Source: a virus (taxonomy: Duplodnaviria > Caudoviricetes). Taken from it: a stretch of DNA of 57,624 nt. The notes beneath the pieces are model-generated. The model had not been told where the DNA came from and did not search any database. It was given only the letters and a program-made list of their open reading frames with translations. Position numbers and translations under genes: made by a program. This document shows, one piece after another, positions 11,723 through 50,994 of the stretch (position 1 is its first letter; every line of letters starts with the position of its first letter). Where the stretch lies: positions 1 to 57,624 of IMG/VR virus record IMGVR_UViG_3300030397_000335. One strand, 5' to 3'.

Positions 11723-12556
11723 TTACTCAGCGCGTTCAGCGCTCATGTAAACCTTGTTGCTTCTTACTGTAAACTTTAGCCACCAGCCGCCAAGGGGCTT
11801 GGGAGGAAATTCCTTTTCGTTAGCCCATCCCATAGCGCCCGTGCCGATCTCGTCTTTGTAGGTAGGGCACTGGATGTGAAGCTGCTTCTTGTGACCGATC
11901 TTGTGCTGGTCATTGAGTGAGAATTGCTGGTTTTCTAGTACCCACGATTCGTGTATGTGACCTGATACCACAATATCGACATCGCGCACTATTGTTGCTC
12001 TGCGGTTGTGCTTACCAACGCCCTTGGTTACAGGGCCGCCGCCGCTGAAGCATCCTAGATTCCTGCATAGCATCTTAATCATGTCCACGTTGTTGCGCTT
12101 AAGTACGCTGGTCTCATGGTTGCCGTAGCCGATGACAGCTATGAGGTGTTTGTAAGGATCAAGGAACTCAATCGCATCTTCTAGTATCGCCCCGAAATAG
12201 TCGTCCGTCTTGTACTGGGGGAGGAGAGCGTCATAAGACTTGCGTGGATCATACTTCCCCTGCATGAGACATAGCAGGTCACCATGTATGATAATAGGCG
12301 CTTGGCGCTCTAGTGCCTGGTCTAAGTGCTTCTTGAAGAGTGTCCGGTTGCAATTGGCGTTATCGAAGTGAACGTCAGAAGCTAGAAGTATATACTGCTC
12401 CCAGCCTGACTTGTGATTCATGCGAATTACATGGACATTCTCGCTTTTCTCCTCAATACTCCACGGCAGTTGGCTCGCCTTTTGTGTATCTGTTGTCTGT
12501 AATGCTTCCGCGTCGGCAAGTTTAGGGTCTTGTCGGCGCTTTTTATTTCTTGCCAC
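11723..12556 (-). CDS. Calcineurin-like metallophosphoesterase
   Basis: SDVH, GD, GNHE and GHIH motifs. Confidence 0.85.
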   Translation of the reverse strand: MARNKKRRQDPKLADAEALQTTDTQKASQLPWSIEEKSENVHVIRMNHKSGWEQYILLASDVHFDNANCNRTLFKKHLDQALERQAPIIIHGDLLCLMQGKYDPRKSYDALLPQYKTDDYFGAILEDAIEFLDPYKHLIAVIGYGNHETSVLKRNNVDMIKMLCRNLGCFSGGGPVTKGVGKHNRRATIVRDVDIVVSGHIHESWVLENQQFSLNDQHKIGHKKQLHIQCPTYKDEIGTGAMGWANEKEFPPKPLGGWWLKFTVRSNKVYMSAERAE

Positions 12557-12582
12557 TTTTCCGTACGGGCTTATGAGAGTAG

Positions 12583-12699
12583 CTAGTCTATAATCTCAGG
12601 CTGCTTCTTTCTTGCTGTGCTCATTAGCCATCCAATGAGGAAAGCCACGATACACCACACAACAAGGGCCGCAGCCCCTATGGGTATCCATGGAGGCAT
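12583..12699 (-). CDS. Small membrane peptide (38 aa)
   Basis: MPPWIPIGAAALVVWCIVAFLIGWLMSTARKKQPEIID. Confidence 0.6.
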   Translation of the reverse strand: MPPWIPIGAAALVVWCIVAFLIGWLMSTARKKQPEIID

Positions 12700-12701
12700 G
12701 G

Positions 12702-12791
12702 TTACGCTGGTTTAGATTTGATGTACATGCGAAGCACTATCAATACCGCTGATATCAGCATGATTGTGCTTAATAGCTGCGCCCAGTTCAT
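12702..12791 (-). CDS. Small membrane peptide (29 aa)
   Basis: MNWAQLLSTIMLISAVLIVLRMYIKSKPA; strong SD GAGGAG. Confidence 0.55.
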   Translation of the reverse strand: MNWAQLLSTIMLISAVLIVLRMYIKSKPA

Positions 12792-12867
12792 TGTTTATCT
12801 CCTCGATCTTAACACACAACCAGGCAACGATCGCTGGTACTGCCGTTAAAAAGATTAGCTTTAGCAT
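12712..12867 (-). CDS. Small membrane peptide (51 aa)
   Basis: MLKLIFLTAVPAIVAWLCVKIEE...; overlaps the 29-aa ORF in another frame. Confidence 0.45.
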   Translation of the reverse strand: MLKLIFLTAVPAIVAWLCVKIEEINNELGAAIKHNHADISGIDSASHVHQI

Positions 12868-12942
12868 AGTAGGGTAGGGGTAGTGCCGGGTGTTATGTCC
12901 AACAGACCTGCGAAGAAACGCTAAGAAGTCCCAGCGCCACCC

Positions 12943-13572
12943 CTAGTTTGTAAATATCTTTTCCATCAGCTCTAGGATATCCCCAAAGCCGCCTGTAATG
13001 AATAGGTAGAATGATAGGAGCACGAAGAACAGCGCAGTAACTACGCCGCCAAGCCGCTTAGTCTTCCTAAGCTCTTTTAGTGCGCTAATTACAAAGCTTC
13101 CTGAAGTTGATTCGCTTTCTTCTTTCATCTTACCGTTGCTGTTCTTGAGGGGCTGGACAACTGCAATTGTTGTCCTAATTGTACCATCATCCTCACGGAT
13201 TACCATCACCTGAAGCACACCTGTTACCCTGTGCCCACGCTTGCTAATCCATGTCTTTGTGATCCAGTAGTCATTGCGATGACCGTCAATGATTTCCTGA
13301 AATAATTCTGTATCCCGTTCCTTGTCCTCGTCTGCGGTAATTTCCCTGAAGTGCATCTTCCTAAGCTCGTTTTCTGAGTACTCAAGAAGCCGTTCCAAAG
13401 CACGGTTGGCATGTACTGGCTTACCATCGAAGCCAACAATAGCCATTGGCACATCAAGCTTGTAAAAGACATCATCTAGAAATGCACCACCAAATGACGA
13501 TTTAAAGTTTGCTACCATTGTGGCAATGCCGGTTAGAATGGCGATCAGAAAACCACCATAGGGGGATGTCAT
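12943..13572 (-). CDS. Membrane-anchored PAS/PAC domain protein (TM-PAS-TM)
   Basis: F..LDVPMAIVGFDG....ANRAL.RLLEYS..EL....FREIT..ED...K.W..K.G...L.V.VIR..DG PAS S-box; hydrophobic N- and C-termini. Confidence 0.9.
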   Translation of the reverse strand: MTSPYGGFLIAILTGIATMVANFKSSFGGAFLDDVFYKLDVPMAIVGFDGKPVHANRALERLLEYSENELRKMHFREITADEDKERDTELFQEIIDGHRNDYWITKTWISKRGHRVTGVLQVMVIREDDGTIRTTIAVVQPLKNSNGKMKEESESTSGSFVISALKELRKTKRLGGVVTALFFVLLSFYLFITGGFGDILELMEKIFTN

Positions 13573-14063
13573 GTGTCACCTTTGAATCTATCCAGCTTTC
13601 CACGAAGCTCAGAGATAGTGTCTTCAAGCTTTTTCTTATCCTTCTCCAGATTATTGACAGTGCTTTCTAGAAGCTTGTAAGCCTCTAAAGCAGGGAATTT
13701 GATAAGGCTAAAAATGATCGGCCAAACAGCAATTGCAACAGGTACAGATATGCACGCCATAATGACTTTGGCAACTGCTACAGCAGGGTAGATACCATTG
13801 AAAACAGATACCACCAAGAGACCATGAACAATGCCACAAGACAGAATGAAAAGTCCAAAAGCAGGGATTATCCAACTTTTCTGTATATCGTGTCTTTTGT
13901 GGTAGAAGTAGACAAGGGCAATAAAGTCTGACAGGTAAGCAATGGTTGTCAGGCTATCACTTATGACGTAGCTCCAGAAAATCCACGGCTCCCACATGAA
14001 GCAGTGTCCGTGCGGCATATACATGCCCATTGTCTCGAATATTTCTCTTAAAGCCTCAATCAT
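13569..14063 (-). CDS. Stand-alone ethylene-receptor-like (ETR1-type) three-TM sensor domain with coiled coil
   Basis: MPHGHC..W, ISD...IAY, FGLFILSCGIVH (ETR1: FGAFIVLCGATH), AKV..A.IS. Confidence 0.85.
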   Translation of the reverse strand: MIEALREIFETMGMYMPHGHCFMWEPWIFWSYVISDSLTTIAYLSDFIALVYFYHKRHDIQKSWIIPAFGLFILSCGIVHGLLVVSVFNGIYPAVAVAKVIMACISVPVAIAVWPIIFSLIKFPALEAYKLLESTVNNLEKDKKKLEDTISELRGKLDRFKGDT

Positions 14064-15589
14064 TACCAGTTGGCAAACTTGGGAATTTCCATCCCGTTGT
14101 AACTATCAGGCATCGCGTCGATATCACCCTGGATGGCCCAGCGGTTATTGTTGCCGTTCGATGCATACCTGATGTTTATAAACTCGTTGTTACCGGAGTC
14201 GCCACGCGGTTCACGCTGCTTCTTGTAGTAGACAGCGCCATCAGCGTTACCGTGAATCTGTAGGTTCTCGAACGTGTACCCAGTCACCGACCCTTGTATC
14301 TGAAGACCTGAACCTTCCCAGCGGTTGTGAGCTTCATTCCAGAACTTCCTCGTCCCGCGTATCATCCCGTTAGCTACCACGCCGTTCTGTGAGTGGTGCT
14401 CTATATGCACGCCAAAGGTGCTGTTGTTGTCGATATGGAAGCCATCTAGCACCGTGGCGTAATTGTGTATGTCTAGCCAGAAGCCAGCGCCGTTGTTATT
14501 AACCGCTGTGTAGTCTTTGAATAGGCATTCATTAACGCCGTACTGACCCTTGAAGCCGCCAGCGTGCCAGAGCGGGTCAACGCCGTATCTCCAGACGTTG
14601 TGGGATGCTTCGCAGTCGATTACCTGCGTCTTATAAAGCCGCTCAGCAGCAATGCCCACGTGGCCGTGACGGTTAAAGAAGCACGACTGCACAAGATGGT
14701 TATTTCCGCGGAGTCTGATGCCTTCGCTCATGGAGTCGAGCACCATGAGGTTGGTCAGCTTCCAGAAGTCACTCTTTGTTGGCATGTGGATCGCTCCATG
14801 CACGCCAGTGTTCGCACAGTACTGGAGAACCAGGCCGTCTATCTCAACACCATCCGTATCGTCTGTAATCGTTTTCACTAGGTACTGAGAAATACCTAGC
14901 TCGACTCGCCCTGGAGTAGGGGTATCAGAAAACTTGGCCCACAATCCCTTTGGACTTTCGCTAGTGCCTTCTAAGAAGAACTCACCAGCGTTCAGCGTAC
15001 CAGCGCTATACACAGGCTGCATCGGTTTGCCATCCCACACCAGCATGTGTGGCTGCATAGCTGCACGGTGCGCGAGGCCGCGTGGAGAGGCTCCGTTACC
15101 GTGCTCATCAGCGCCATGCACGCGCTTGGCCTCGTGTTGATGGAACGTGTAAGAGAGCGGCTTAAACCACACCTCACCATTCTTTGTCCAGCCATCGCCC
15201 CAGTCAATCGTGCCCTTGATGCGTGCCTTATGCGGGTTGATAGCCTTGATTCTCGTACGTCCGCGTACCATAATGGGTTCGTAGTCGCCGTCCTTGAGCC
15301 AGATCTGCTGGCCGTTGGCATCATTAACCGCTTCCTGAGTATTGTCATCAGGGCCGATGGTGATGCCTTCACGCTGCGGAGGATTGGCAGGAGGCAGTTC
15401 GATTGGCGGGCCTGGTTCTATTGGCTTTGGCTCGATAGGTGGGGCGGGGGTGCTGCTCAGTATCTCCGCAACCCTACGTTTTAGGTCATCGATATCCGCC
15501 TCAACGTCAGAGATCCGTAATTCGTGGTTATCCACGCGCTGCTGTGATGCTAGCGGGTATGCTTTGCCGTCTGTGGTTATCTGGAGCAT
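14063..15589 (-). CDS. Right-handed parallel beta-helix protein (pectin-lyase-like fold)
   Basis: Repeating G.(I/F).. N-rich strands, GGFK, GFWLD, GVHIEH; N-terminal coiled coil and Pro-rich linker. Confidence 0.75.
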   Translation of the reverse strand: MLQITTDGKAYPLASQQRVDNHELRISDVEADIDDLKRRVAEILSSTPAPPIEPKPIEPGPPIELPPANPPQREGITIGPDDNTQEAVNDANGQQIWLKDGDYEPIMVRGRTRIKAINPHKARIKGTIDWGDGWTKNGEVWFKPLSYTFHQHEAKRVHGADEHGNGASPRGLAHRAAMQPHMLVWDGKPMQPVYSAGTLNAGEFFLEGTSESPKGLWAKFSDTPTPGRVELGISQYLVKTITDDTDGVEIDGLVLQYCANTGVHGAIHMPTKSDFWKLTNLMVLDSMSEGIRLRGNNHLVQSCFFNRHGHVGIAAERLYKTQVIDCEASHNVWRYGVDPLWHAGGFKGQYGVNECLFKDYTAVNNNGAGFWLDIHNYATVLDGFHIDNNSTFGVHIEHHSQNGVVANGMIRGTRKFWNEAHNRWEGSGLQIQGSVTGYTFENLQIHGNADGAVYYKKQREPRGDSGNNEFINIRYASNGNNNRWAIQGDIDAMPDSYNGMEIPKFANW

Positions 15590-15858
15590 TAATCAAAGCG
15601 GACATCTTTAATTGTCCACCCCTTAGAGTTTAATGGTTCTGTTACAGAATCATACCAGGCAGAAGTAACTTGCCACGGCTGCTCAGTTGTTGTTGGAGAC
15701 ACTGTTGGGTAGTACGTCCAGTTCAACTTGCTACCATATTTTAGATCAAGCAGGTTGTATAGCTCTTGAGCCTCATTGTCCGTTAATTCAAGTTTTCTAC
15801 TGTCTGAAATCTCGAATACTAATTTTGTCAGTTTTACTGGTTTGTTTTTCTTTGCCAT
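15589..15858 (-). CDS. Hypothetical protein
   Basis: 89 aa; TAATG overlaps. Confidence 0.7.
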   Translation of the reverse strand: MAKKNKPVKLTKLVFEISDSRKLELTDNEAQELYNLLDLKYGSKLNWTYYPTVSPTTTEQPWQVTSAWYDSVTEPLNSKGWTIKDVRFD

Positions 15859-16286
15859 TAGCTAACCGATTCTAAAACGTACAAGAGAAGCTCTTTAGTA
15901 AAGGCATCGCCTGGACAGGCTGTTTGCCGCTTCTCCCTATGCATAAAAATATCTTCGTGGGTCATGCCGTGGGCTTTCATCGTTGGTAGTATCCAGTCCC
16001 TACAAGCCTTCTGTAGCATTGGCAGGGGCGGGGGATCATTCATGAAGTTGCCCACAAAGCAGAATCCCGCCGCGCTGGTATTCATCCCTGGACAGTGAGC
16101 GCCGTTTTCCGTTAGTTTGCGACCGTACCGAATGACGAAACGGCCATCCACACGCTCAATCCCTGCATGGTAACCTATGTCTTTCCACCCGCGTTCTTCC
16201 TTATGAAAACGTCTGATAACTTCCCAGTTACTCTCCTCACCGTTTACCGTCGCTGAATGGTGTATTACGATGTGCCTGCAAACCAT
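15858..16286 (-). CDS. Endolysin, N-acetylmuramoyl-L-alanine amidase (Amidase_2)
   Basis: IVIHHSA, GW.DIGYH, GAHC, HRE...TACPG. Confidence 0.93.
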   Translation of the reverse strand: MVCRHIVIHHSATVNGEESNWEVIRRFHKEERGWKDIGYHAGIERVDGRFVIRYGRKLTENGAHCPGMNTSAAGFCFVGNFMNDPPPLPMLQKACRDWILPTMKAHGMTHEDIFMHREKRQTACPGDAFTKELLLYVLESVS

Positions 16287-16439: not shown

Positions 16440-16676
16440 CTATGCTTCTGGAGCTTTGCCCATCACTGATAAAATCTGGTCGCGTACTGGCTTAGAGATG
16501 GCTACTAGTATGCTGCCTAGAAATGCCACTAGCTCAGCAAACGTGATGTCACCATCGGCAAGCCAAGAAAGGTCAAGGCCCAATCCATCAGCGCCGATGG
16601 CTGGCAGGATAACAGACACTAGAGAGAAGATGATTGCTACCGCTAAGCCGCTGAGAAGAACTTTATTGGGTATCAT
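16440..16676 (-). CDS. Putative holin (two TM helices)
   Basis: 78 aa, two hydrophobic segments, directly upstream of the amidase. Confidence 0.6.
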   Translation of the reverse strand: MIPNKVLLSGLAVAIIFSLVSVILPAIGADGLGLDLSWLADGDITFAELVAFLGSILVAISKPVRDQILSVMGKAPEA

Positions 16677-16725
16677 TGTTTTCGCGGGTAATCCGCTGTT
16701 TGGTTGCTAAAAGTGGGAGTGATCC

Positions 16726-39175: not shown

Positions 39176-39835
39176 TTACTCGTATTTGACGTGAGAAAGA
39201 TTAGCTTCTACGGATATAAGTCTAAGATTTGCATTCTTCTTGTGATATCTACTCCATTCGTCAGCGAGCAACTTATCGCTAAACTCTCTACCATAGCTAT
39301 TGTCTTCCGTACCCTTGATGCCAATGTCGCTAAAGCCTATCTCTTTGGAATCCATCCATCTAGACACAAGCATATGGAATGTATCTGGCGGTACATGGTC
39401 AACGTGAGAATTCTTTTCATCAAGTTTTGCTTTTGTATATGGACATATTGGGTCACCTGATAAAACCATGCGCTTAAACTCGATTATTTGCCACTTGACA
39501 ATACTTCGCATCGCAGCCAATACGTCAGACCGATGCGAAGACCCATCTATGCAAGTATGCCAACTAAAATCAGTTGAGCTATTATCTACACGATGAACAA
39601 CAAAATGGCGTGTCCTTTTCCATTCTGAGTCTAACTCGACAGTAAAAAAGTCTATACCTGCACCAATCTTTGATTCAGATTCAGGATGCTTGCTCAATAG
39701 GTCTACTAAAAAGCTGTGGTCAGGCTCGCTAATAGGCTCAAACTCGTTAACACTTTCTATAATATCCCTCACATACTGCTTAGCGGCCTTTTTTGTAGGG
39801 AACTCATAATCCCCAATAGTCACTGGTTTTGCCAT
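39176..39835 (-). CDS. DCL/DUF3223-like domain fused to an HNH-like region
   Basis: FPTKKAA, HPE...KIG.GI, F...R.D.S..DFS...C; HVDH..P...NL. Confidence 0.7.
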   Translation of the reverse strand: MAKPVTIGDYEFPTKKAAKQYVRDIIESVNEFEPISEPDHSFLVDLLSKHPESESKIGAGIDFFTVELDSEWKRTRHFVVHRVDNSSTDFSWHTCIDGSSHRSDVLAAMRSIVKWQIIEFKRMVLSGDPICPYTKAKLDEKNSHVDHVPPDTFHMLVSRWMDSKEIGFSDIGIKGTEDNSYGREFSDKLLADEWSRYHKKNANLRLISVEANLSHVKYE

Positions 39836-39839
39836 AATT

Positions 39840-40799
39840 CTATATCCGTATATAATCCACACCCGAATCAGCGAGCTTGTCCCGCTGGTGGCTGTAGACC
39901 GTTGTTGTTTGTAAGCTGCTATGACGCAGCACGGTCTTTACCTTGAGCACATCAGCGCCGCCATCGAGCATTAGCATGGCCGACGTGTGACGCAGCGTAT
40001 GTGCTCCAATTTCGCTTTGCAGCCCCGCCTTCATTACCAGGCGCTTGATAAGCCTGTAGACTGCATCGGGGCTAATCGGCTTATCCCTGTTGAAGTTCGA
40101 GAACGACAGAAACAGCGGCCCCGATGCTATCCCGTATTCCGCCTTGTGCTGCTCGATAGCCTGAATCAGATGCGCTGGCACCTTCACGCTCTGTCCCTCA
40201 CCGCCTTTCGTGTACGGCAGCATCAACACGTTATAAGCGCCCTGCATCGTGAAATGCTCACAGCACACAGCAGCAAGCTCGGATCGCCTAAGCCCCAAAT
40301 ATACCAGCATCTTCACAATCAGCTCGTCGCGGGTGTGCTCGCAGCAATCCAGCATCGCCCGCACCTGATCTTTCGACAGAAACACAACCGACGCCTCACC
40401 CTTATTCACCTTGATCTGCTGCACATCACCGTCGAAAGGGTTTTCATCGGCGCTGATTAGCTTTTTCTTTCTAAGCCAGGTGTAGAAGCCACGAATAGCG
40501 CTCATCTTCTGCGCTTTCGTGTTCTGGCTTGATGGCTCCCCCCTGTGGTTCGTTAGCTTGTTGAAATAGTCATTGACCATCTCATCAGACACGCCTATGG
40601 CCGCGCTTACATCAACCTTTTCAGTACCGAAGAAATGAACCAGCGCGTTGTAATAGGCAGAGTACGTGTTAGGCTTCTTTCTGTAGCGAACAAGGAACGC
40701 AGCAATCAAGTCACTCGACTGGTTCAGGTACTCCCGTTGTGACTGCTGTGCTGATGTTCGCCGCTGGATAGCTGTGTTATGCTGCTGGAGGTTGTTCAT
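39840..40799 (-). CDS. Second tyrosine recombinase (XerC/D-like, no arm domain)
   Basis: GLRRSE, TKGG, HTLRHT, LRHSS..TT..Y. Confidence 0.92.
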   Translation of the reverse strand: MNNLQQHNTAIQRRTSAQQSQREYLNQSSDLIAAFLVRYRKKPNTYSAYYNALVHFFGTEKVDVSAAIGVSDEMVNDYFNKLTNHRGEPSSQNTKAQKMSAIRGFYTWLRKKKLISADENPFDGDVQQIKVNKGEASVVFLSKDQVRAMLDCCEHTRDELIVKMLVYLGLRRSELAAVCCEHFTMQGAYNVLMLPYTKGGEGQSVKVPAHLIQAIEQHKAEYGIASGPLFLSFSNFNRDKPISPDAVYRLIKRLVMKAGLQSEIGAHTLRHTSAMLMLDGGADVLKVKTVLRHSSLQTTTVYSHQRDKLADSGVDYIRI

Positions 40800-47511: not shown

Positions 47512-48070
47512 CGTCAGCCATAGTAAAGGTTGCCGTTACATCAAGCGTATCATTGTCGTCTAGCGACTTATCCCCACCCGAGAAAGCGCCAACGCTGTAA
47601 AGCGTGCCAGTCGTGCCGCTCTTTGTGTTGTTGCTTGTCAGAAACGCACCGCCAACCGTCGTACTGTTGGTTGAGCAGGTAAACGTAGCTGTTGATGCGC
47701 TATTCGTAACGCTTTGGCTCGATACGCCAGCATCTGTCCACGTAACGCGGTTTGCTTCGTCGTATGCCGTTACTTCTGTCCAGCCTGCGTGGCTAGACAT
47801 AGTATCGCCAGCGGCTACCGTTGGCGTACCGTCTGTTAGACCCACATACCATGTGGTAATCTGCGTGCCGCCTGATAGCGTAACATCTAACAAGTGATCG
47901 AGACCAGCATTCACAACGATGTTGTGGATCTCGTCTTCCCACTTGATATTCCCATCTTTATCACGGCAAACAATCTTATAATGCCCATCTACGCGGGCAC
48001 CGCTGCGTAAGCCGTTTCTTTTTGTTACCGAAGCGCCATAATCAGCGCCCGCTTTTCCATTTGCGTTCAT
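47501..48070 (-). CDS. Putative virion/tail-fibre-associated protein
   Basis: Thr/Gly/Ser-rich; N.VVN.GL..LLD, WYVGL, DTL.VT. Confidence 0.65.
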   Translation of the reverse strand: MNANGKAGADYGASVTKRNGLRSGARVDGHYKIVCRDKDGNIKWEDEIHNIVVNAGLDHLLDVTLSGGTQITTWYVGLTDGTPTVAAGDTMSSHAGWTEVTAYDEANRVTWTDAGVSSQSVTNSASTATFTCSTNSTTVGGAFLTSNNTKSGTTGTLYSVGAFSGGDKSLDDNDTLDVTATFTMADDGA

Positions 48071-50994
48071 TAGTCTGGTTTGATGTTGATTGTGCCGTTA
48101 ATTGCATTGTAAATATTGATAGTAGCAGTGATGTAGCCTAGGCTTGGATAGCTAAACGTATCACTGGCGGAAGCCCCTTCCGTCACTGATGCCGAGAGTC
48201 CTGTAGTGGCTGTCCACGTATCACCAGCTACCGCCCCTTCGCTTATGCTCGCCAGCGCTGCGAGTGATGCCGCGAATGACTCGCCCGCATCCGTCCCTTC
48301 CGCTATCGCCCCTGTTGCTGCCCCTGTTATGACAGCGGTAAACACATCTGTTGCGGTAGCCCCTTCCGATAAGCTTGATAGCTGCGCTGAAACCGCTAAC
48401 CACGTGTCACCAGCATCTGCGCCGTCTGATAGCGCCCCTGTTTCACCTGCGCCCGTAACAGCGCTGAATGCATCGCCAGCAGAAGCGCCTTCTATTATCG
48501 CTGCTGCTCTAGTGATTACTGTTGCCCACGTCTCTCCTGCTGATGCGCCTTCCGTTATAGCTGCAAGCGCGGCCATCGTCACGGCGAATGTATCGCCAGC
48601 ATCAGCACCATCCGTTACAGTACCTGTTTCACCGCTTGTCGGCGTGGTGACAGAGAACGTATGATCCCAAAAAGTCTCGGGGTCGTTCTGGTTATTGTAC
48701 TGCGTGAGCGCTAGATCAGAAGCCTCGCTGTCCACGTCATTACGTAGGCGCATCGCTGCCAGCGTGTCCTCGAAGTAGTCACTTCTTGCTCCGCCATCCC
48801 ACTCCTGTCCCCACGTCCATTTTCTACCACCAGATACGCTGCCTATGGTGACACCTGTATGTGTCTGCGTCTCGTCAAGCACACCATCCTTGTACCACTT
48901 AACGATAGTGTCACCGCTTGACTCCTCTACCGTCACGTACCAGTGATGATCGCCCGTAACCGATGTCCCTGTATTCTGAAGGCTAGATGCGCCAACAATT
49001 GACGCTAGGCTACCAGCAGACGAGAAGAGAAGCACAAACTGATTCGCTCCTGTGCCGTCGTGCTTGCCTATAATCGCATACTGAGTGGTTGTGTTGGGGA
49101 TGTTTGCCCAGAACTCAACCGTGATGTTGTTCTCAACATCGAAGTCGCTTAGTTCTATCTCGTCATTGGATGCATCGAAATCAAAGGCTTTCCAAATACC
49201 GCCAGGGCCGCTAACCAGCGCACCCATTGTACCGATGCTGGTACCGTCGTCAGTGCCTGTCGAATCTGGGACATCCCCGCTATTCCCTGTTGGGTCGTAC
49301 TTGGCGTTATACACGTTGCGGTAGACAGCATGCGCCCGCTTCGAGCCTAGCCAGCTATCACGCGGCGCTGCGGACTTCGTAGCGTCACCCCACCAGGCGT
49401 AAATGTCCTCACCATTAGTAGCATCAGCATCCGTTGTGTACGTCCATAGCTCCGCTGTGCCTCCCGTTGATGATGGCTGGAACGTCGTAATGTCCAGCGG
49501 TATCATGTCGGTACCAGCCTCGTCCTTAGAAAAACGAAGGCTGGGTGCTCCCCAGACTTCTGCTGTGGATTCGTCAGAGTCGATTAAAGCCGCTGGCAAT
49601 TGCCCCTCACGGATGATCCATGATGATGCGTTGACCGTGCCTGTGCCTGATATCTGAGCGGCTTTCGCCTGAAGCTGCACCCTGCGTGCGCTGCTGTTGT
49701 CTACATAGTCTAGTTCCAGTTCCGACTTAAAGGTCGCTCCTGTGCCGCTGTTGTAGTCATCTGAAAGCTCAGTAGATGAGAACAGGCCGCCGCGCCTGAA
49801 ATTAGCCTGGTCGATTAGCCCATCGAAATAGTTACCAGCGCCTACGGAGCCAAGAGACCATGAAGTGCCACGCGGCTCCGGTGTATCTCCTGATGTAGTC
49901 AGCGTCTCTGCCGTACCGTTGTTGATACGAACGCCCATCTCATTGTTGGTCTTGTCGTGGTAGAATGAGATGTGGCTCCACGTGTTGATAGCTACCGTCC
50001 CTGTGGTATCTAAAGTCTTTGCTCCTCCGGAGGTATTCAGCCTAAACCTGATAGCGCCTGTGGAGCGCAATTGAAGCGAATAACTGTTGTTATCCTGCCC
50101 CATGAGGCCATCATTCGCTAGGGCGTGCGGGTATATCCAAAGCTTCCCACAAAAGTCCTCATCCTCAATGTACTTGTAAATGTGGTCGTCGGATGACACG
50201 TACTCGCTAGACCCTGAAAGCTCAACGCCGTTGCCTACTTTGCCGGTGGTATAAGTAGGCGATCCAACCTCAGTGAGTACATCGTGCCTATCGCCGCGCT
50301 TCTCGTATACGTCCTCTAAATCGTAATAGGTCTCAGTCTCCCCAGTAGCTTCAAAGTAGCCGTAGATGCTACCTGAATTGTAAAGCTCTGTTATCTCGCT
50401 AGATGATGGGATATAGCCTTTATAAATCCAGACCTCGCCAATATCGCCTTCCATCAGGCTGGACGTATTGTGGCCGCCCACCCTGAACGTCGTGCTACGC
50501 GCACTAACATCATCAGTAACGCTAGTTGTGGACTCGCTGGTGTCATCAACGCGTATGCCTATCGTCTGCGTACTAGCTACAAACCACGCAAAGACGTGAT
50601 ACCACGTGCCGCTACTGTGCGTTGCCGCAATCTCGGCATTTACAGCGCCGCCGCTCGCCTTGTTTACCTGAAAGCGGATGCGCTCATTACTTCTCTTCTG
50701 GATGAGCCAGTCGGTGTTCTCTAGCCCAATAACCGAAACCTCAGAACCTACATCCCCCGCCTCGAACTTGAACCACAAAGAGATTGCCCAGTCAACGTCA
50801 CCAATTTGAAAAGCGTGGTTAATCCCTGTGGATAGGGACAGGTAATCAGTGGAGCCGTCAAAACTAGCCGCATAACCGCCGTTCGCTGAAGCGTACGTTG
50901 GCGTTCCGTTCTCAGTGAGGTGATACCTGTAGACATGGCTGTCTTCCTCGTCATGGAAGCGATAAGCCGCCTGAAGGTCCGTAAGTACTGACAT
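48070..50994 (-). CDS. Multi-LamG/concanavalin-like domain protein with C-terminal ~23-aa repeats
   Basis: Three LamG-like blocks (FDG..DY, W.H, G.I.E...LYNSG) and repeated EGA.AGD.(F/W) units. Confidence 0.8.
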   Translation of the reverse strand: MSVLTDLQAAYRFHDEEDSHVYRYHLTENGTPTYASANGGYAASFDGSTDYLSLSTGINHAFQIGDVDWAISLWFKFEAGDVGSEVSVIGLENTDWLIQKRSNERIRFQVNKASGGAVNAEIAATHSSGTWYHVFAWFVASTQTIGIRVDDTSESTTSVTDDVSARSTTFRVGGHNTSSLMEGDIGEVWIYKGYIPSSSEITELYNSGSIYGYFEATGETETYYDLEDVYEKRGDRHDVLTEVGSPTYTTGKVGNGVELSGSSEYVSSDDHIYKYIEDEDFCGKLWIYPHALANDGLMGQDNNSYSLQLRSTGAIRFRLNTSGGAKTLDTTGTVAINTWSHISFYHDKTNNEMGVRINNGTAETLTTSGDTPEPRGTSWSLGSVGAGNYFDGLIDQANFRRGGLFSSTELSDDYNSGTGATFKSELELDYVDNSSARRVQLQAKAAQISGTGTVNASSWIIREGQLPAALIDSDESTAEVWGAPSLRFSKDEAGTDMIPLDITTFQPSSTGGTAELWTYTTDADATNGEDIYAWWGDATKSAAPRDSWLGSKRAHAVYRNVYNAKYDPTGNSGDVPDSTGTDDGTSIGTMGALVSGPGGIWKAFDFDASNDEIELSDFDVENNITVEFWANIPNTTTQYAIIGKHDGTGANQFVLLFSSAGSLASIVGASSLQNTGTSVTGDHHWYVTVEESSGDTIVKWYKDGVLDETQTHTGVTIGSVSGGRKWTWGQEWDGGARSDYFEDTLAAMRLRNDVDSEASDLALTQYNNQNDPETFWDHTFSVTTPTSGETGTVTDGADAGDTFAVTMAALAAITEGASAGETWATVITRAAAIIEGASAGDAFSAVTGAGETGALSDGADAGDTWLAVSAQLSSLSEGATATDVFTAVITGAATGAIAEGTDAGESFAASLAALASISEGAVAGDTWTATTGLSASVTEGASASDTFSYPSLGYITATINIYNAINGTINIKPD

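What the first reader, a model, noticed from the sequence alone, without database searches (positions are those of the whole stretch)
13569..14063. Phage-encoded stand-alone ethylene-receptor-like domain: candidate gas/metal-sensing lysis module
Seen: three TM helices with ISD......Y, FILSCGIVH and AKV, then a coiled coil and stop. Known: ETR1-type domains bind ethylene through Cu(I) with D25, Y32, I35, P36, I62, C65 and H69, and bacterial versions (Synechocystis Slr1212) are fused to PAS/GAF/kinase domains. Here D, Y, I62, C and H are kept but SIP is SDF, so the ligand may differ. The usual EBD-PAS order is preserved but split into two coupled genes with no kinase, in one run with the amidase (amidase, 89 aa, beta-helix, EBD, PAS). 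Inference: a phage sensory system controlling lysis or intercepting host signalling. I know of no described example.
Basis: partly seen in the sequence, partly recalled or inferred. Interest (0 to 1): 0.9.

Follow-up and report, generated by a model that had tools for sequence, protein, structure and literature searches.

The report
Phage kinase-less ethylene-receptor-like membrane protein
A temperate phage from an aquatic metagenome encodes a small membrane protein that is only the copper-binding sensor part of plant and bacterial ethylene receptors, with no kinase, set among its tail and cell-lysis genes; similar stubs occur in other phages, some right beside their lysis enzymes, which hints at an undescribed kind of lysis-control protein.

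Summary
ORF 13569-14063 (-) encodes 164 aa that match Pfam ETR1_N almost end to end (72 bits, cut-off 27). The model shows three membrane helices and a C-terminal coiled coil, with no output domain. It overlaps the next gene, a membrane-tethered PAS protein, by 4 nt. It closes a run of five start/stop-overlapping genes that begins with an Amidase_2. It belongs to an 11-member clade of short proteins, separated from cellular relatives by a long, fully supported branch. The clade keeps the copper-site residues: ETR1 C65 and H69 in 11/11, D25 in 9/11, K91 in 10/11. It replaces the Ile-Pro pair (Ile 85/89, Pro 89/89 in cellular relatives) with D/N/G-F/Y in 11/11, so ethylene is a doubtful ligand. 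The case is not isolated. Nineteen IMG/VR contigs and the cultured Maribacter phages Molly/Colly carry ETR1_N proteins, and 16 of the 19 are short. Three sit directly upstream of an endolysin and two lie near a separate PAS gene. My best reading (0.4) is a metal-site-bearing lysis-cassette membrane protein that is a holin or regulates one. Interference with host signalling is the main rival. No paper describing this was found. No function was tested.

The parts
13569..14063 (-). Gene for the 164-aa stand-alone ETR1_N (ethylene-binding-domain-like) protein with C-terminal coiled coil
14031..14060 (-). N-terminal short helix (residues 2-11), conserved in 7 of 11 clade members and in cellular relatives
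14001..14012 (-). H18-G19-x-C21 motif in the loop before helix 1; H18, G19 and C21 are invariant in 100 of 100 aligned sequences
13896..13988 (-). Membrane helix 1 (residues 26-56). It holds D36 (ETR1 D25), Y43 (Y32) and D46-F47 in place of Ile-Pro (I35, P36). It is less hydrophobic than helices 2 and 3.
13797..13871 (-). Membrane helix 2 (residues 65-89) with I73, C76 and H80 (ETR1 I62, C65, H69: the Cu(I) ligands)
13701..13790 (-). Membrane helix 3 (residues 92-121) with K99 (ETR1 K91)
13578..13688 (-). C-terminal helix or coiled coil (residues 126-162). It corresponds to the helix that links the domain to PAS or kinase parts in cellular relatives.
12943..13572 (-). Gene for a 209-aa PAS protein with hydrophobic segments at 5-23 and 174-192; its start overlaps the EBD stop (ATGA)
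14063..15589 (-). Gene for a 508-aa right-handed beta-helix protein (probable tail spike or fibre); its stop overlaps the EBD start (TAATG)
15589..15858 (-). 89-aa gene of unknown function, overlapping both neighbours
15858..16286 (-). Amidase_2 (N-acetylmuramoyl-L-alanine amidase), matching PHROG lysis families
16440..16676 (-). 78-aa ORF with two hydrophobic segments just upstream of the amidase. It is the positional holin candidate of this phage and has no family match.
12712..12867 (-). 51-aa ORF with an N-terminal hydrophobic segment, downstream of the PAS gene

Best explanation
The gene encodes a real, selectively maintained, kinase-less ethylene-receptor-type membrane domain. It has three helices that keep the Cu(I) site (Asp, Cys, His, Lys) and a dimer-type C-terminal coiled coil. 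It lies in the late tail-lysis gene run of a temperate siphovirus-like phage. It is one member of a wider, so far undescribed set of short phage ETR1_N proteins. Most likely it acts in the inner membrane as a lysis-cassette component. It would either be a holin-type protein or bind and regulate the holin, with its oligomeric or conducting state set by the buried metal site. In this phage it would work together with the co-translated, membrane-tethered cytoplasmic PAS protein. What is shown: the domain identity, the lack of an output domain, the conservation pattern, the gene coupling, and the recurrence next to endolysins and PAS genes in other phages. What is inferred: copper binding, oligomerisation, any effect on the membrane or on lysis timing, and any contact with the PAS protein. 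Ethylene itself is an unlikely ligand for this clade.
For: Identity: ETR1_N at 72 bits, a confident 3-helix plus coiled-coil model, and 11 of 11 clade members matching ETR1_N.

Maintained, not decaying: 28 columns are invariant in 11 sequences of 45-63% identity. The clade is one side of a branch with SH-aLRT 100, and its members are 0.5-0.9 changes per site apart. In a scan of 1.84 billion representatives, the two clade members score 249 and 234 bits and the next hit 134 bits.

Metal site kept: C76 and H80 in 11/11, D36 in 9/11, K99 in 10/11. In ETR1 these residues bind Cu(I) and couple it to helix 3 (PMC10266040, passages).

Stand-alone form is typical of viruses: 16 of 19 viral ETR1_N ORFs are at most 269 aa. 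By contrast, only 3 complete short ORFs were found among 160 cellular or metagenome loci.

Lysis link:
- In the window, five genes from the Amidase_2 to the PAS gene have overlapping start and stop codons.
- In Maribacter phage Molly the ETR1_N protein (60.9 bits) ends 4 nt before the Amidase_3. The phage's authors list no holin for it (PMC8776804, passages).
- In L183 the ETR1_N ORF is followed after 227 nt by a Phage_lysozyme.
- In L184 it is followed after 58 nt by a Peptidase_M15_4.
- In L181 a sub-threshold M15_4 match lies just upstream.

Plant ERS1 and ETR1 are reported to conduct cations, and OsERS1 does so independently of Cys65 (PMC13261662 and bioRxiv 10.1101/2025.10.20.683334, passages).

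The long stem branch and the clade-specific loss of the otherwise near-invariant Ile-Pro pair argue for a new role rather than mimicry of a host protein.
Against: In the window the gene is not next to the amidase; the 89-aa and beta-helix genes lie between. A 78-aa two-segment ORF holds the classic holin slot. The amidase sits among tail genes and could be a virion lysin.

No holin profile matches. Phage_holin_2 reaches 18.1 bits against a cut-off of 32 and appears in 1 of 11 members. PHROGs gave only one sub-threshold hit to a family of unknown function (phrog_1009, E 0.084).

Of the 19 viral records, 13 showed none of the seven endolysin families searched, and many of these are fragments. 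In 3 records the endolysin is far from the ETR1_N gene.

The endolysin-adjacent proteins (Molly, L183, L184) belong to other, more divergent lineages. They have Asn at the D25 position and no Lys at K91, so their role may not transfer to this clade.

Strict retention of D, C, H and K fits a sensor better than a plain hole-former.

The gene contexts of the other ten clade members could not be fetched. Two related proviruses (capsid 54-57% identical) lack the gene, so it is accessory. No experiment exists.
Confidence: 0.4

Rival explanations
1. Interference with host signalling. The stub keeps exactly the parts of an EBD histidine kinase that make the dimer (membrane domain plus signalling helix) but has no kinase. 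It would pair with a host EBD kinase or cyclase and silence or redirect it, and the PAS protein would do the same for host PAS partners.
For: The C-terminal helix aligns with the linker helix of cellular EBD-PAS-kinases (36% identity over 144 residues to P0010). Its first part is conserved in the clade (P124 invariant; Y129, N137 and L139 in at least 90%). The best-matching cellular EBDs found are kinases of Betaproteobacteria, Methylococcales, Acidobacteriota and others. The best phage matches of the terminase infect Acidovorax, Bordetella and Limnohabitans. The gene is accessory and the phage is temperate (integrase). Stubs without kinase are the rule in viruses.
Against: The clade is at most 44% identical to any cellular EBD that was found and sits on a long stem branch. 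A mimic should stay close to its target. The Ile-Pro pair is near-invariant in cellular forms (Ile 85/89, Pro 89/89) and is lost in the clade. The host is unknown, so no target is known. The late-operon position fits a late function better than early takeover.
Confidence: 0.2
2. This is a two-protein ethylene (or other small alkene or gas) receptor, EBD plus PAS, that tunes a phage decision such as lysis timing or induction in response to the gas.
For: Five of the seven ETR1 ethylene-binding positions and K91 are kept. A separate PAS gene lies beside stand-alone EBDs in three viral lineages: the window, L175 (PAS match 120 nt after the EBD stop) and L173/L174 (about 1 kb downstream). Bacterial EBDs do bind ethylene; AzoEtr1 residues 1-130 suffice (PMC11819568, passages). 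Four short viral forms (L168-L171) and the kinase-like L167 keep all seven positions.
Against: The positions of I35 and P36 are D/N/G and F/Y in 11/11 clade members. D25N alone lowers affinity about 100-fold (abstract of PMC11971883), and two clade members have N there. The PAS partner is not conserved with the clade. No output domain is known.
Confidence: 0.12
3. A copper-handling accessory gene (moron). It would be a small Cu(I)-binding membrane protein that alters copper tolerance or delivery in the lysogen or the infected cell, unrelated to lysis.
For: The Cys-Gly-x-x-His motif of helix 2 is the only polar feature kept in all 17 distinct viral forms and in Molly. H18-G19-x-C21 is invariant in 100/100 sequences. 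The phage is temperate. The cassette has a lower G+C (0.42-0.45) than its neighbours (0.50-0.54). Contig ends in one run break exactly at the gene's upstream boundary.
Against: No promoter or terminator signal sets it apart from the late operon (11 promoter-like sites against 8.1 +/- 2.8 expected). Overlapping stops and starts tie it to late genes. This reading does not explain the endolysin or PAS neighbours.
Confidence: 0.1
4. A decaying fragment of a host sensor kinase picked up by accident.
For: It corresponds to the N-terminal fifth of proteins such as P0010 (769 aa).
Against: There are eleven members of similar length, 28 invariant columns, an intact start, clean overlaps with both neighbours, and a long independent history. 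Short forms recur in 16 of 19 viral loci.
Confidence: 0.02

Closest known systems
Ethylene-binding domain of plant receptors ETR1/ERS1 (Pfam ETR1_N, PF25487)
   Same: Three membrane helices. Cys and His in helix 2, Asp in helix 1 and Lys in helix 3 have the same spacing (D to C 40 residues, C to H 4). A following coiled-coil helix is present. Profile match is 72 bits.
   Different: No GAF, kinase or receiver part. The Ile-Pro pair of helix 1 is replaced by Asp-Phe. The helix 2-3 loop gives 19 residues from His to Lys, as in bacterial forms. The N-terminal motif is HGxC rather than the plant Cys4/Cys6 pair (the plant pair is as described in PMC13261662). The host of the gene is a phage.
Bacterial EBD sensor kinases (SynEtr1/Slr1212 of Synechocystis, AzoEtr1 of Azospirillum; nearest found here P0010, EBD-PAS-HisKA-HATPase, 769 aa)
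   Same: 36% identity over the domain and linker helix, the same MPHGxC...W start, and the same order of EBD then PAS.
   Different: The cellular forms carry PAS, GAF or kinase parts on one chain and keep Ile-Pro (Ile 85/89, Pro 89/89). They score 122-137 bits against ETR1_N where the window's protein scores 72. The window's PAS is a separate, membrane-tethered protein with no specific similarity to P0010's PAS.
Phage holins and antiholins (for example three-helix class I holins such as lambda S, or the T4 RI antiholin; these examples are recalled, not from a call)
   Same: Small size, three membrane helices, a charged cytoplasmic tail, and a place in or beside the lysis genes. In Molly, L183 and L184 an ETR1_N protein sits exactly where a holin is expected.
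   Different: No sequence or profile similarity to any holin family. A conserved buried metal site. No functional test. In the window another small ORF holds the holin slot.
Phage-encoded receptors taken from host signalling, for example VqmA of vibriophage VP882 (a PAS-containing receptor of a host autoinducer)
   Same: A phage carrying a sensory domain of cellular origin. A PAS domain is involved. The phage is temperate (PMC8284805, listing and start of abstract only).
   Different: VqmA-Phage is a soluble DNA-binding regulator with a known ligand and output. Here the parts are membrane proteins with no DNA-binding or enzymatic output.
Ethylene-receptor-type histidine kinases of giant viruses of algae
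   Same: A virus-borne member of the same domain family. These are mentioned in PMC7700396 (passage) and in the reference list of PMC6944256.
   Different: Those are full hybrid kinases in eukaryotic viruses. Here there are kinase-less stubs in tailed phages.

Membership tests
ETR1_N / ethylene-binding domain (PF25487) | Profile match above the curated cut-off over most of the domain | tested here: met
   72 bits against 27, profile positions 2-96 of 97. 11 of 11 clade members match.
ETR1_N / ethylene-binding domain (PF25487) | Three transmembrane helices at the N-terminus | tested here: met
   Model helices at 26-56, 65-89 and 92-121, pLDDT 91.7. Hydropathy alone finds only helices 2 and 3.
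ETR1_N / ethylene-binding domain (PF25487) | Cu(I) ligands Cys65 and His69 in helix 2 | tested here: met
   C76 and H80 are invariant in 11/11 clade members and 89/89 relatives. Their role is described in PMC10266040.
ETR1_N / ethylene-binding domain (PF25487) | Asp25 (helix 1) and Lys91 (helix 3) polar pair | tested here: met
   D36 and K99 are present. In the clade D is found in 9/11 (N in 2) and K in 10/11 (M in 1).
Functional ethylene receptor (ETR1-type ligand binding) | All seven residues needed for ethylene binding in ETR1 (D25, Y32, I35, P36, I62, C65, H69). The papers I read confirm only that there are seven. | tested here: not met
   Five of seven are kept. The I35 and P36 positions are D46 and F47, and D/N/G plus F/Y in 11/11 clade members, against I in 85/89 and P in 89/89 relatives.
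Functional ethylene receptor (ETR1-type ligand binding) | Saturable binding of ethylene and of Cu(I) | not testable with these tools
   Needs radioligand and copper-competition assays such as those in PMC11819568 and PMC10266040.
Two-component sensor kinase with EBD input | Output domain (HisKA/HATPase, GGDEF or the like) on the same chain | tested here: not met
   The protein stops after the coiled coil at residue 164 and has no further Pfam match. All 11 clade members are 139-179 aa.
Holin | Small membrane protein with one or more transmembrane helices and a charged C-terminal tail | tested here: met
   (tail with 9 K/R and 9 D/E).
Holin | Gene adjacent to the endolysin gene | tested here: inconclusive
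   In the window it lies two genes downstream of the amidase in one overlapping run. It is directly adjacent in Molly, L183 and L184, which belong to other ETR1_N lineages.
Holin | Match to a known holin family profile | tested here: not met
   Phage_holin_2 reaches 18.1 bits, below the cut-off of 32, in 1 of 11 members. No PHROG holin match.
Holin | Lethal, timed permeabilisation of the membrane that releases the endolysin | not testable with these tools
   Needs expression and complementation tests.
PAS domain (neighbour gene 12943-13572) | Profile match above cut-off | tested here: met
   TIGR00229 at 49.7 bits against 22.9. Pfam PAS_4 at 23.1 and PAS at 22.6, each exactly at its cut-off. 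Atlas structure rows name PAS.

The most novel reading that the evidence does not exclude
Tailed phages have repeatedly taken the transmembrane domain of ethylene receptors, stripped of its kinase, and turned it into a new class of lysis protein. This would be a metal-site-gated holin or viroporin ('sensor holin'), in some phages paired with a PAS protein. Through it the moment of lysis would answer to copper, redox state or a small unsaturated ligand in the host membrane.
Probability: 0.2. Interest if true: 0.85.

Novelty: new variant of a known kind. Interest (0 to 1): 0.68.

Why it matters
It matters for three reasons.

First, it extends the ethylene-receptor domain to tailed phages in a form not described in the papers I could search: kinase-less stubs of 127-190 aa. 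These are the usual form in viruses and the exception in cells. Any model in which this domain only feeds a kinase is therefore incomplete.

Second, the repeated position next to endolysins, together with recent reports that plant receptors conduct cations, makes a concrete hypothesis cheaply testable. The hypothesis is that the domain can itself act on the membrane.

Third, no experimental structure of this domain was found in the PDB copy, by sequence, by profile or by fold. The papers read here describe full-length and truncated plant receptors as hard to crystallise. Natural minimal versions that fold confidently in silico are attractive targets for structure determination and for copper- and ligand-binding studies.

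Tried and rejected
The weak Pfam hit to Phage_holin_2 (18.1 bits) is rejected as composition bias. Only 1 of 11 clade members shows it.

'Split of one host EBD-PAS kinase' is not supported by similarity.

Complex prediction of EBD (A1) with the PAS protein (A3) returned 'no answer', score 0.00 against a mark of 0.32. This is evidence neither way.

The AlphaFold2 model of the PAS protein from a 2-row alignment had pLDDT 38.4 and was unusable.

Foldseek against the PDB gave nothing at E <= 0.001. Against BFVD the best hit was one unnamed 289-aa viral protein (E 1.1e-3, TMq 0.60). It has the same length as Molly1_65 but its identity was not checked. Sequence and profile searches of the PDB found no EBD.

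The promoter and terminator scan showed no excess over shuffles. No tRNAs were found. PADLOC gave no hits for 9 neighbourhood proteins.

tblastn of the window's EBD, its PAS protein and its beta-helix protein against 50,697 phage records gave no match.

IMG/VR scans with the protein, with A1 and with the beta-helix protein found no relatives.

They returned only cellular kinase forms of 28-44% identity. Absence of clade members there is therefore not shown. P0004 alone against genome contigs found nothing.

The host remains unknown. The terminase's best phage matches (Acidovorax, Bordetella, Limnohabitans) and the taxa of the best-matching cellular EBDs are only hints.

No RNA holder was listed for the region. 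The three DNA runs are from one study and may be the source. No variants were seen in the gene, so no population-level selection estimate was possible. dN/dS was not done because there is no DNA for the other clade members.

L077's neighbours gave no phage match, so whether that contig is viral is open.

Seven endolysin families were searched in the 19 viral records. The GH19 search rang nowhere, not even in the controls, so it says nothing.

Supplements were closed. The residue alignment figures of the receptor papers and the gene table of the Molly paper (SI file 7) were not seen and may bear on the seven-residue list and on Molly1_65.
Full report
**What is there.**
The window is a 57,624-bp linear IMG/VR virus record, estimated 69% complete. 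It carries a terminase, portal, major head protein and tape measure and an integrase, so it is a temperate siphovirus-like phage. Its DNA is held by three aquatic-metagenome runs of one study, which may be its source.

ORF 13569-14063 on the minus strand encodes 164 aa. These match Pfam ETR1_N at 72 bits (cut-off 27) over profile positions 2-96 of 97. A model built from 100 aligned sequences is confident (pLDDT 91.7). It shows a short N-terminal helix, three long helices (26-56, 65-89, 92-121) and a C-terminal helix at 126-162. No other domain follows.

**The gene run.**
On the minus strand the order is:
- tape measure
- 882-aa tail protein
- 78-aa ORF with two hydrophobic segments
- Amidase_2
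- 89-aa ORF
- 508-aa beta-helix protein
- the EBD gene
- a 209-aa PAS protein
- a 51-aa membrane ORF
- a metallophosphoesterase

The four junctions from the amidase to the PAS gene are overlaps: TAATG three times, then ATGA. The five genes are therefore probably translated as one unit. Promoter-like and terminator-like sites are no more frequent than in shuffles.

Assembly is not the cause. Contigs from three runs bridge PAS-EBD-beta-helix without a mismatch and at the same depth as the flanks.

The PAS assignment is sound: TIGR00229 at 49.7 bits and structure-based look-alikes named PAS. The protein has hydrophobic segments at 5-23 and 174-192, so the PAS fold is tethered to the membrane at both ends.

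**The family.**
The word-indexed search found eight further proteins of 139-179 aa at 46-64% identity, making 9 hits among 50 candidates with the query itself.

The exhaustive profile scan of 1.84 billion representatives found 7,260 relatives. Only two, of 157 and 178 aa, scored like the clade (249 and 234 bits). The third scored 134 bits, and the rest are mostly long sensor proteins.

In a tree with 80 named cellular domains, the 11 short proteins form one side of a branch with SH-aLRT 100. The stem is about one to two changes per site, and the donor lineage is unresolved ('quick' method, 125 columns).

Twenty-eight columns are invariant among the 11. This is a maintained gene, not debris.

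**Which receptor features are kept.**
From passages of PMC10266040: in ETR1, Cys65 and His69 of helix 2 and Asp25 of helix 1 hold Cu(I), and Asp25 pairs with Lys91 of helix 3.

In the clade and in 89 cellular relatives the equivalent columns are as follows.

| ETR1 position | Window residue | Clade (11) | Cellular relatives (89) |
|---|---|---|---|
| C65 | C76 | 11/11 | 89/89 |
| H69 | H80 | 11/11 | 89/89 |
| D25 | D36 | D 9/11 (N in 2) | D 86/89 |
| K91 | K99 | K 10/11 | K 86/89 |
| I35 | D46 | D, N or G 11/11 | Ile 85/89 |
| P36 | F47 | F or Y 11/11 | Pro 89/89 |

The Ile and Pro columns lie ten and eleven residues after the Asp, as I35 and P36 do after D25.

PMC11819568 and PMC6944256 confirm only that there are seven.

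So the copper site looks intact while the ethylene pocket is altered. Ethylene is a doubtful ligand for this clade.

An H-G-x-C motif before helix 1 is invariant in all 100 sequences.

**It is not a one-off.**
A canonical stand-alone domain used as query against 50,697 phage records hit eight records, all Maribacter phages Molly and Colly.

Their protein Molly1_65 (289 aa) matches ETR1_N at 60.9 bits. It overlaps a preceding one-helix coiled-coil ORF and ends 4 nt before the Amidase_3 gene. The paper describing these phages lists only the amidase as a lysis gene for Molly and names no holin (PMC8776804, passages).

A scan of IMG/VR with an alignment of canonical domains returned 19 contigs (17 distinct). 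All carry ETR1_N matches over the cut-off, at 51-126 bits. In 16 of the 19 the ORF is at most 269 aa when counted from the most upstream start. The other three (371, 389 and 271 aa) continue into what I read as kinase-like sequence, which was not tested.

Among 160 cellular and metagenome loci, only 3 complete ORFs were short.

The protein atlas also lists clusters of 146-162-aa ETR1_N proteins whose few labelled members are often tailed phages (a lead only).

**Neighbours of the viral stubs.**
Seven endolysin families were searched in six frames in the 19 records.

An endolysin-type match was found in six records:
- In L183 a Phage_lysozyme ORF starts 227 nt after the stub. It scores 46.8 bits when one in-frame TAG is read through.
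- In L184 a Peptidase_M15_4 ORF starts 58 nt after it (40.9 bits).
- In L181 a sub-threshold M15_4 match (18.5 bits) lies just upstream.
- In two jumbo records and in one record with a kinase-like form, the endolysin is tens of kilobases away.
- Thirteen records, many of them fragments, showed none of the seven families.

With Molly and the window, this gives four or five cases within two genes of an endolysin. By my own rough arithmetic, using about one gene per kb and Molly's 200 annotated features, random placement would give about 0.4. This comparison does not correct for the general tendency of membrane-protein genes to lie near lysis genes.

A separate PAS gene lies about 1 kb downstream of the stub in L173/L174 (47.6 bits) and begins 120 nt after the stub's stop in L175 (29.8 bits).

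In a Pfam scan of 148 neighbouring ORFs from 14 loci, PAS was the only family group hit twice. Both hits are probably the two L173 ORFs. The list shows only 25 families.

The endolysin-adjacent forms (Molly, L183, L184) have Asn at the Asp25 position and no Lys at the Lys91 position. All 17 viral forms keep the I62, C65 and H69 positions.

**How it most likely works.**
The comparative pattern points to the membrane side of lysis. Two papers report that plant ETR1 and ERS1 conduct cations, and one of them that OsERS1 does so independently of Cys65. The domain can therefore, in principle, act on a membrane by itself.

I commit, at 0.4, to this reading: the protein is a lysis-cassette membrane component, either holin-type or binding and regulating the holin. 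In the window the holin candidate would be the 78-aa ORF.

In this reading the protein dimerises through its coiled coil. Its state depends on the retained metal site, and the co-translated PAS protein acts as a cytoplasmic partner.

None of these steps is shown. Against it: the two intervening genes, the absence of any holin profile match, the fact that the adjacent cases belong to other lineages, and the unknown contexts of the ten closest relatives.

**Rivals.**
- Dominant-negative pairing with host EBD kinases (0.2). This fits the retained linker helix and the accessory, temperate setting. It fits poorly with the long stem branch, the at most 44% identity to any cellular domain found, and the loss of the near-invariant Ile-Pro pair.
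- A true ethylene or alkene sensor with PAS (0.12). This is weakened by the same substitutions and by the PAS partner not travelling with the clade: its one homologue was reported with a longest contig matching none of those reported for the clade members.
- A copper-handling moron (0.1). This explains the universal C-G-x-x-H but not the neighbours.
- A decaying fragment (0.02). This is nearly excluded.

**Novelty.**
Three full-text searches for phage-borne ethylene-binding domains found nothing relevant. Full receptor kinases in giant viruses of algae are mentioned in reviews.

The domain family is known. Its kinase-less phage form, its association with endolysin and PAS genes, and the Ile-Pro-less clade appear undescribed. 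I therefore rate it a new variant of a known kind.

Noticed in passing
L183:6636-7064 (+): The Phage_lysozyme gene next to the viral ETR1_N stub is interrupted by one in-frame TAG. Read through as Q it gives a 142-aa lysozyme at 46.8 bits. This could be stop-codon reassignment, a suppressor, or a pseudogene.
   Followed up: partly
L077:1563-2835 (+): A 3.2-kb metagenome contig carries a canonical stand-alone ETR1_N protein (137 aa from the MEFMPHG start, 125.5 bits). It overlaps the end of a 286-aa ORF with a sub-threshold PAS_4 match (17.3 bits). Whether the contig is viral is unknown.
   Followed up: partly
L071:101-1206 (+): A complete 201-aa stand-alone ETR1_N protein (136.6 bits) starts in overlap with the stop of a response-regulator receiver gene. 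This is a cellular-looking kinase-less arrangement.
   Followed up: no
window 14001-14012 (-) and the same column in A2: An H-G-x-C motif (followed by W three residues on) before helix 1 is invariant in 100 of 100 bacterial and phage sequences. It differs from the plant Cys4/Cys6 pair. It may be a second metal or disulfide site. I found no mention of it in the passages read.
   Followed up: partly
window 14035-14063 and 14200-15000: In run X2 two contigs match the beta-helix gene but diverge exactly at or near the EBD start (14035, 14063). Summed depth over 14.2-15.0 kb is 3-15 times that of the flanks. Related phages in the sample seem to share the beta-helix gene but not the EBD-PAS cassette. 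There is one contig for each breakpoint.
   Followed up: no
window 16442-16693 and 12555-12713: Low-depth contigs (about 22-31x, roughly 90% identical) skip 250 nt that cover the 78-aa two-segment ORF. They also replace 157 nt between the 51-aa ORF and the phosphoesterase gene with 144 other letters. A sister strain may lack the positional holin candidate.
   Followed up: no
window 12712-14063: The EBD, PAS and 51-aa genes have lower G+C (0.42-0.45; GC3 0.42-0.48) than the flanking beta-helix (0.54; 0.63) and phosphoesterase (0.50; 0.58) genes. This is within the spread of other genes of the phage.
   Followed up: partly
loci L168-L185 (neighbour ORFs, alignment A6): Among the ORFs within 1.8 kb of viral ETR1_N stubs, one matches the anti-CBASS protein Acb1 (E 1.1e-32) and one matches RF-1. 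Which loci they come from was not determined.
   Followed up: no
window 39840-40799 (-), 39176-39862 (-), 48070-50994 (-): An integrase (79.7 bits) lies next to a DUF3223 protein. There is also a 974-aa protein with three Laminin_G_3 (concanavalin-like) stretches. Neither was examined further.
   Followed up: no
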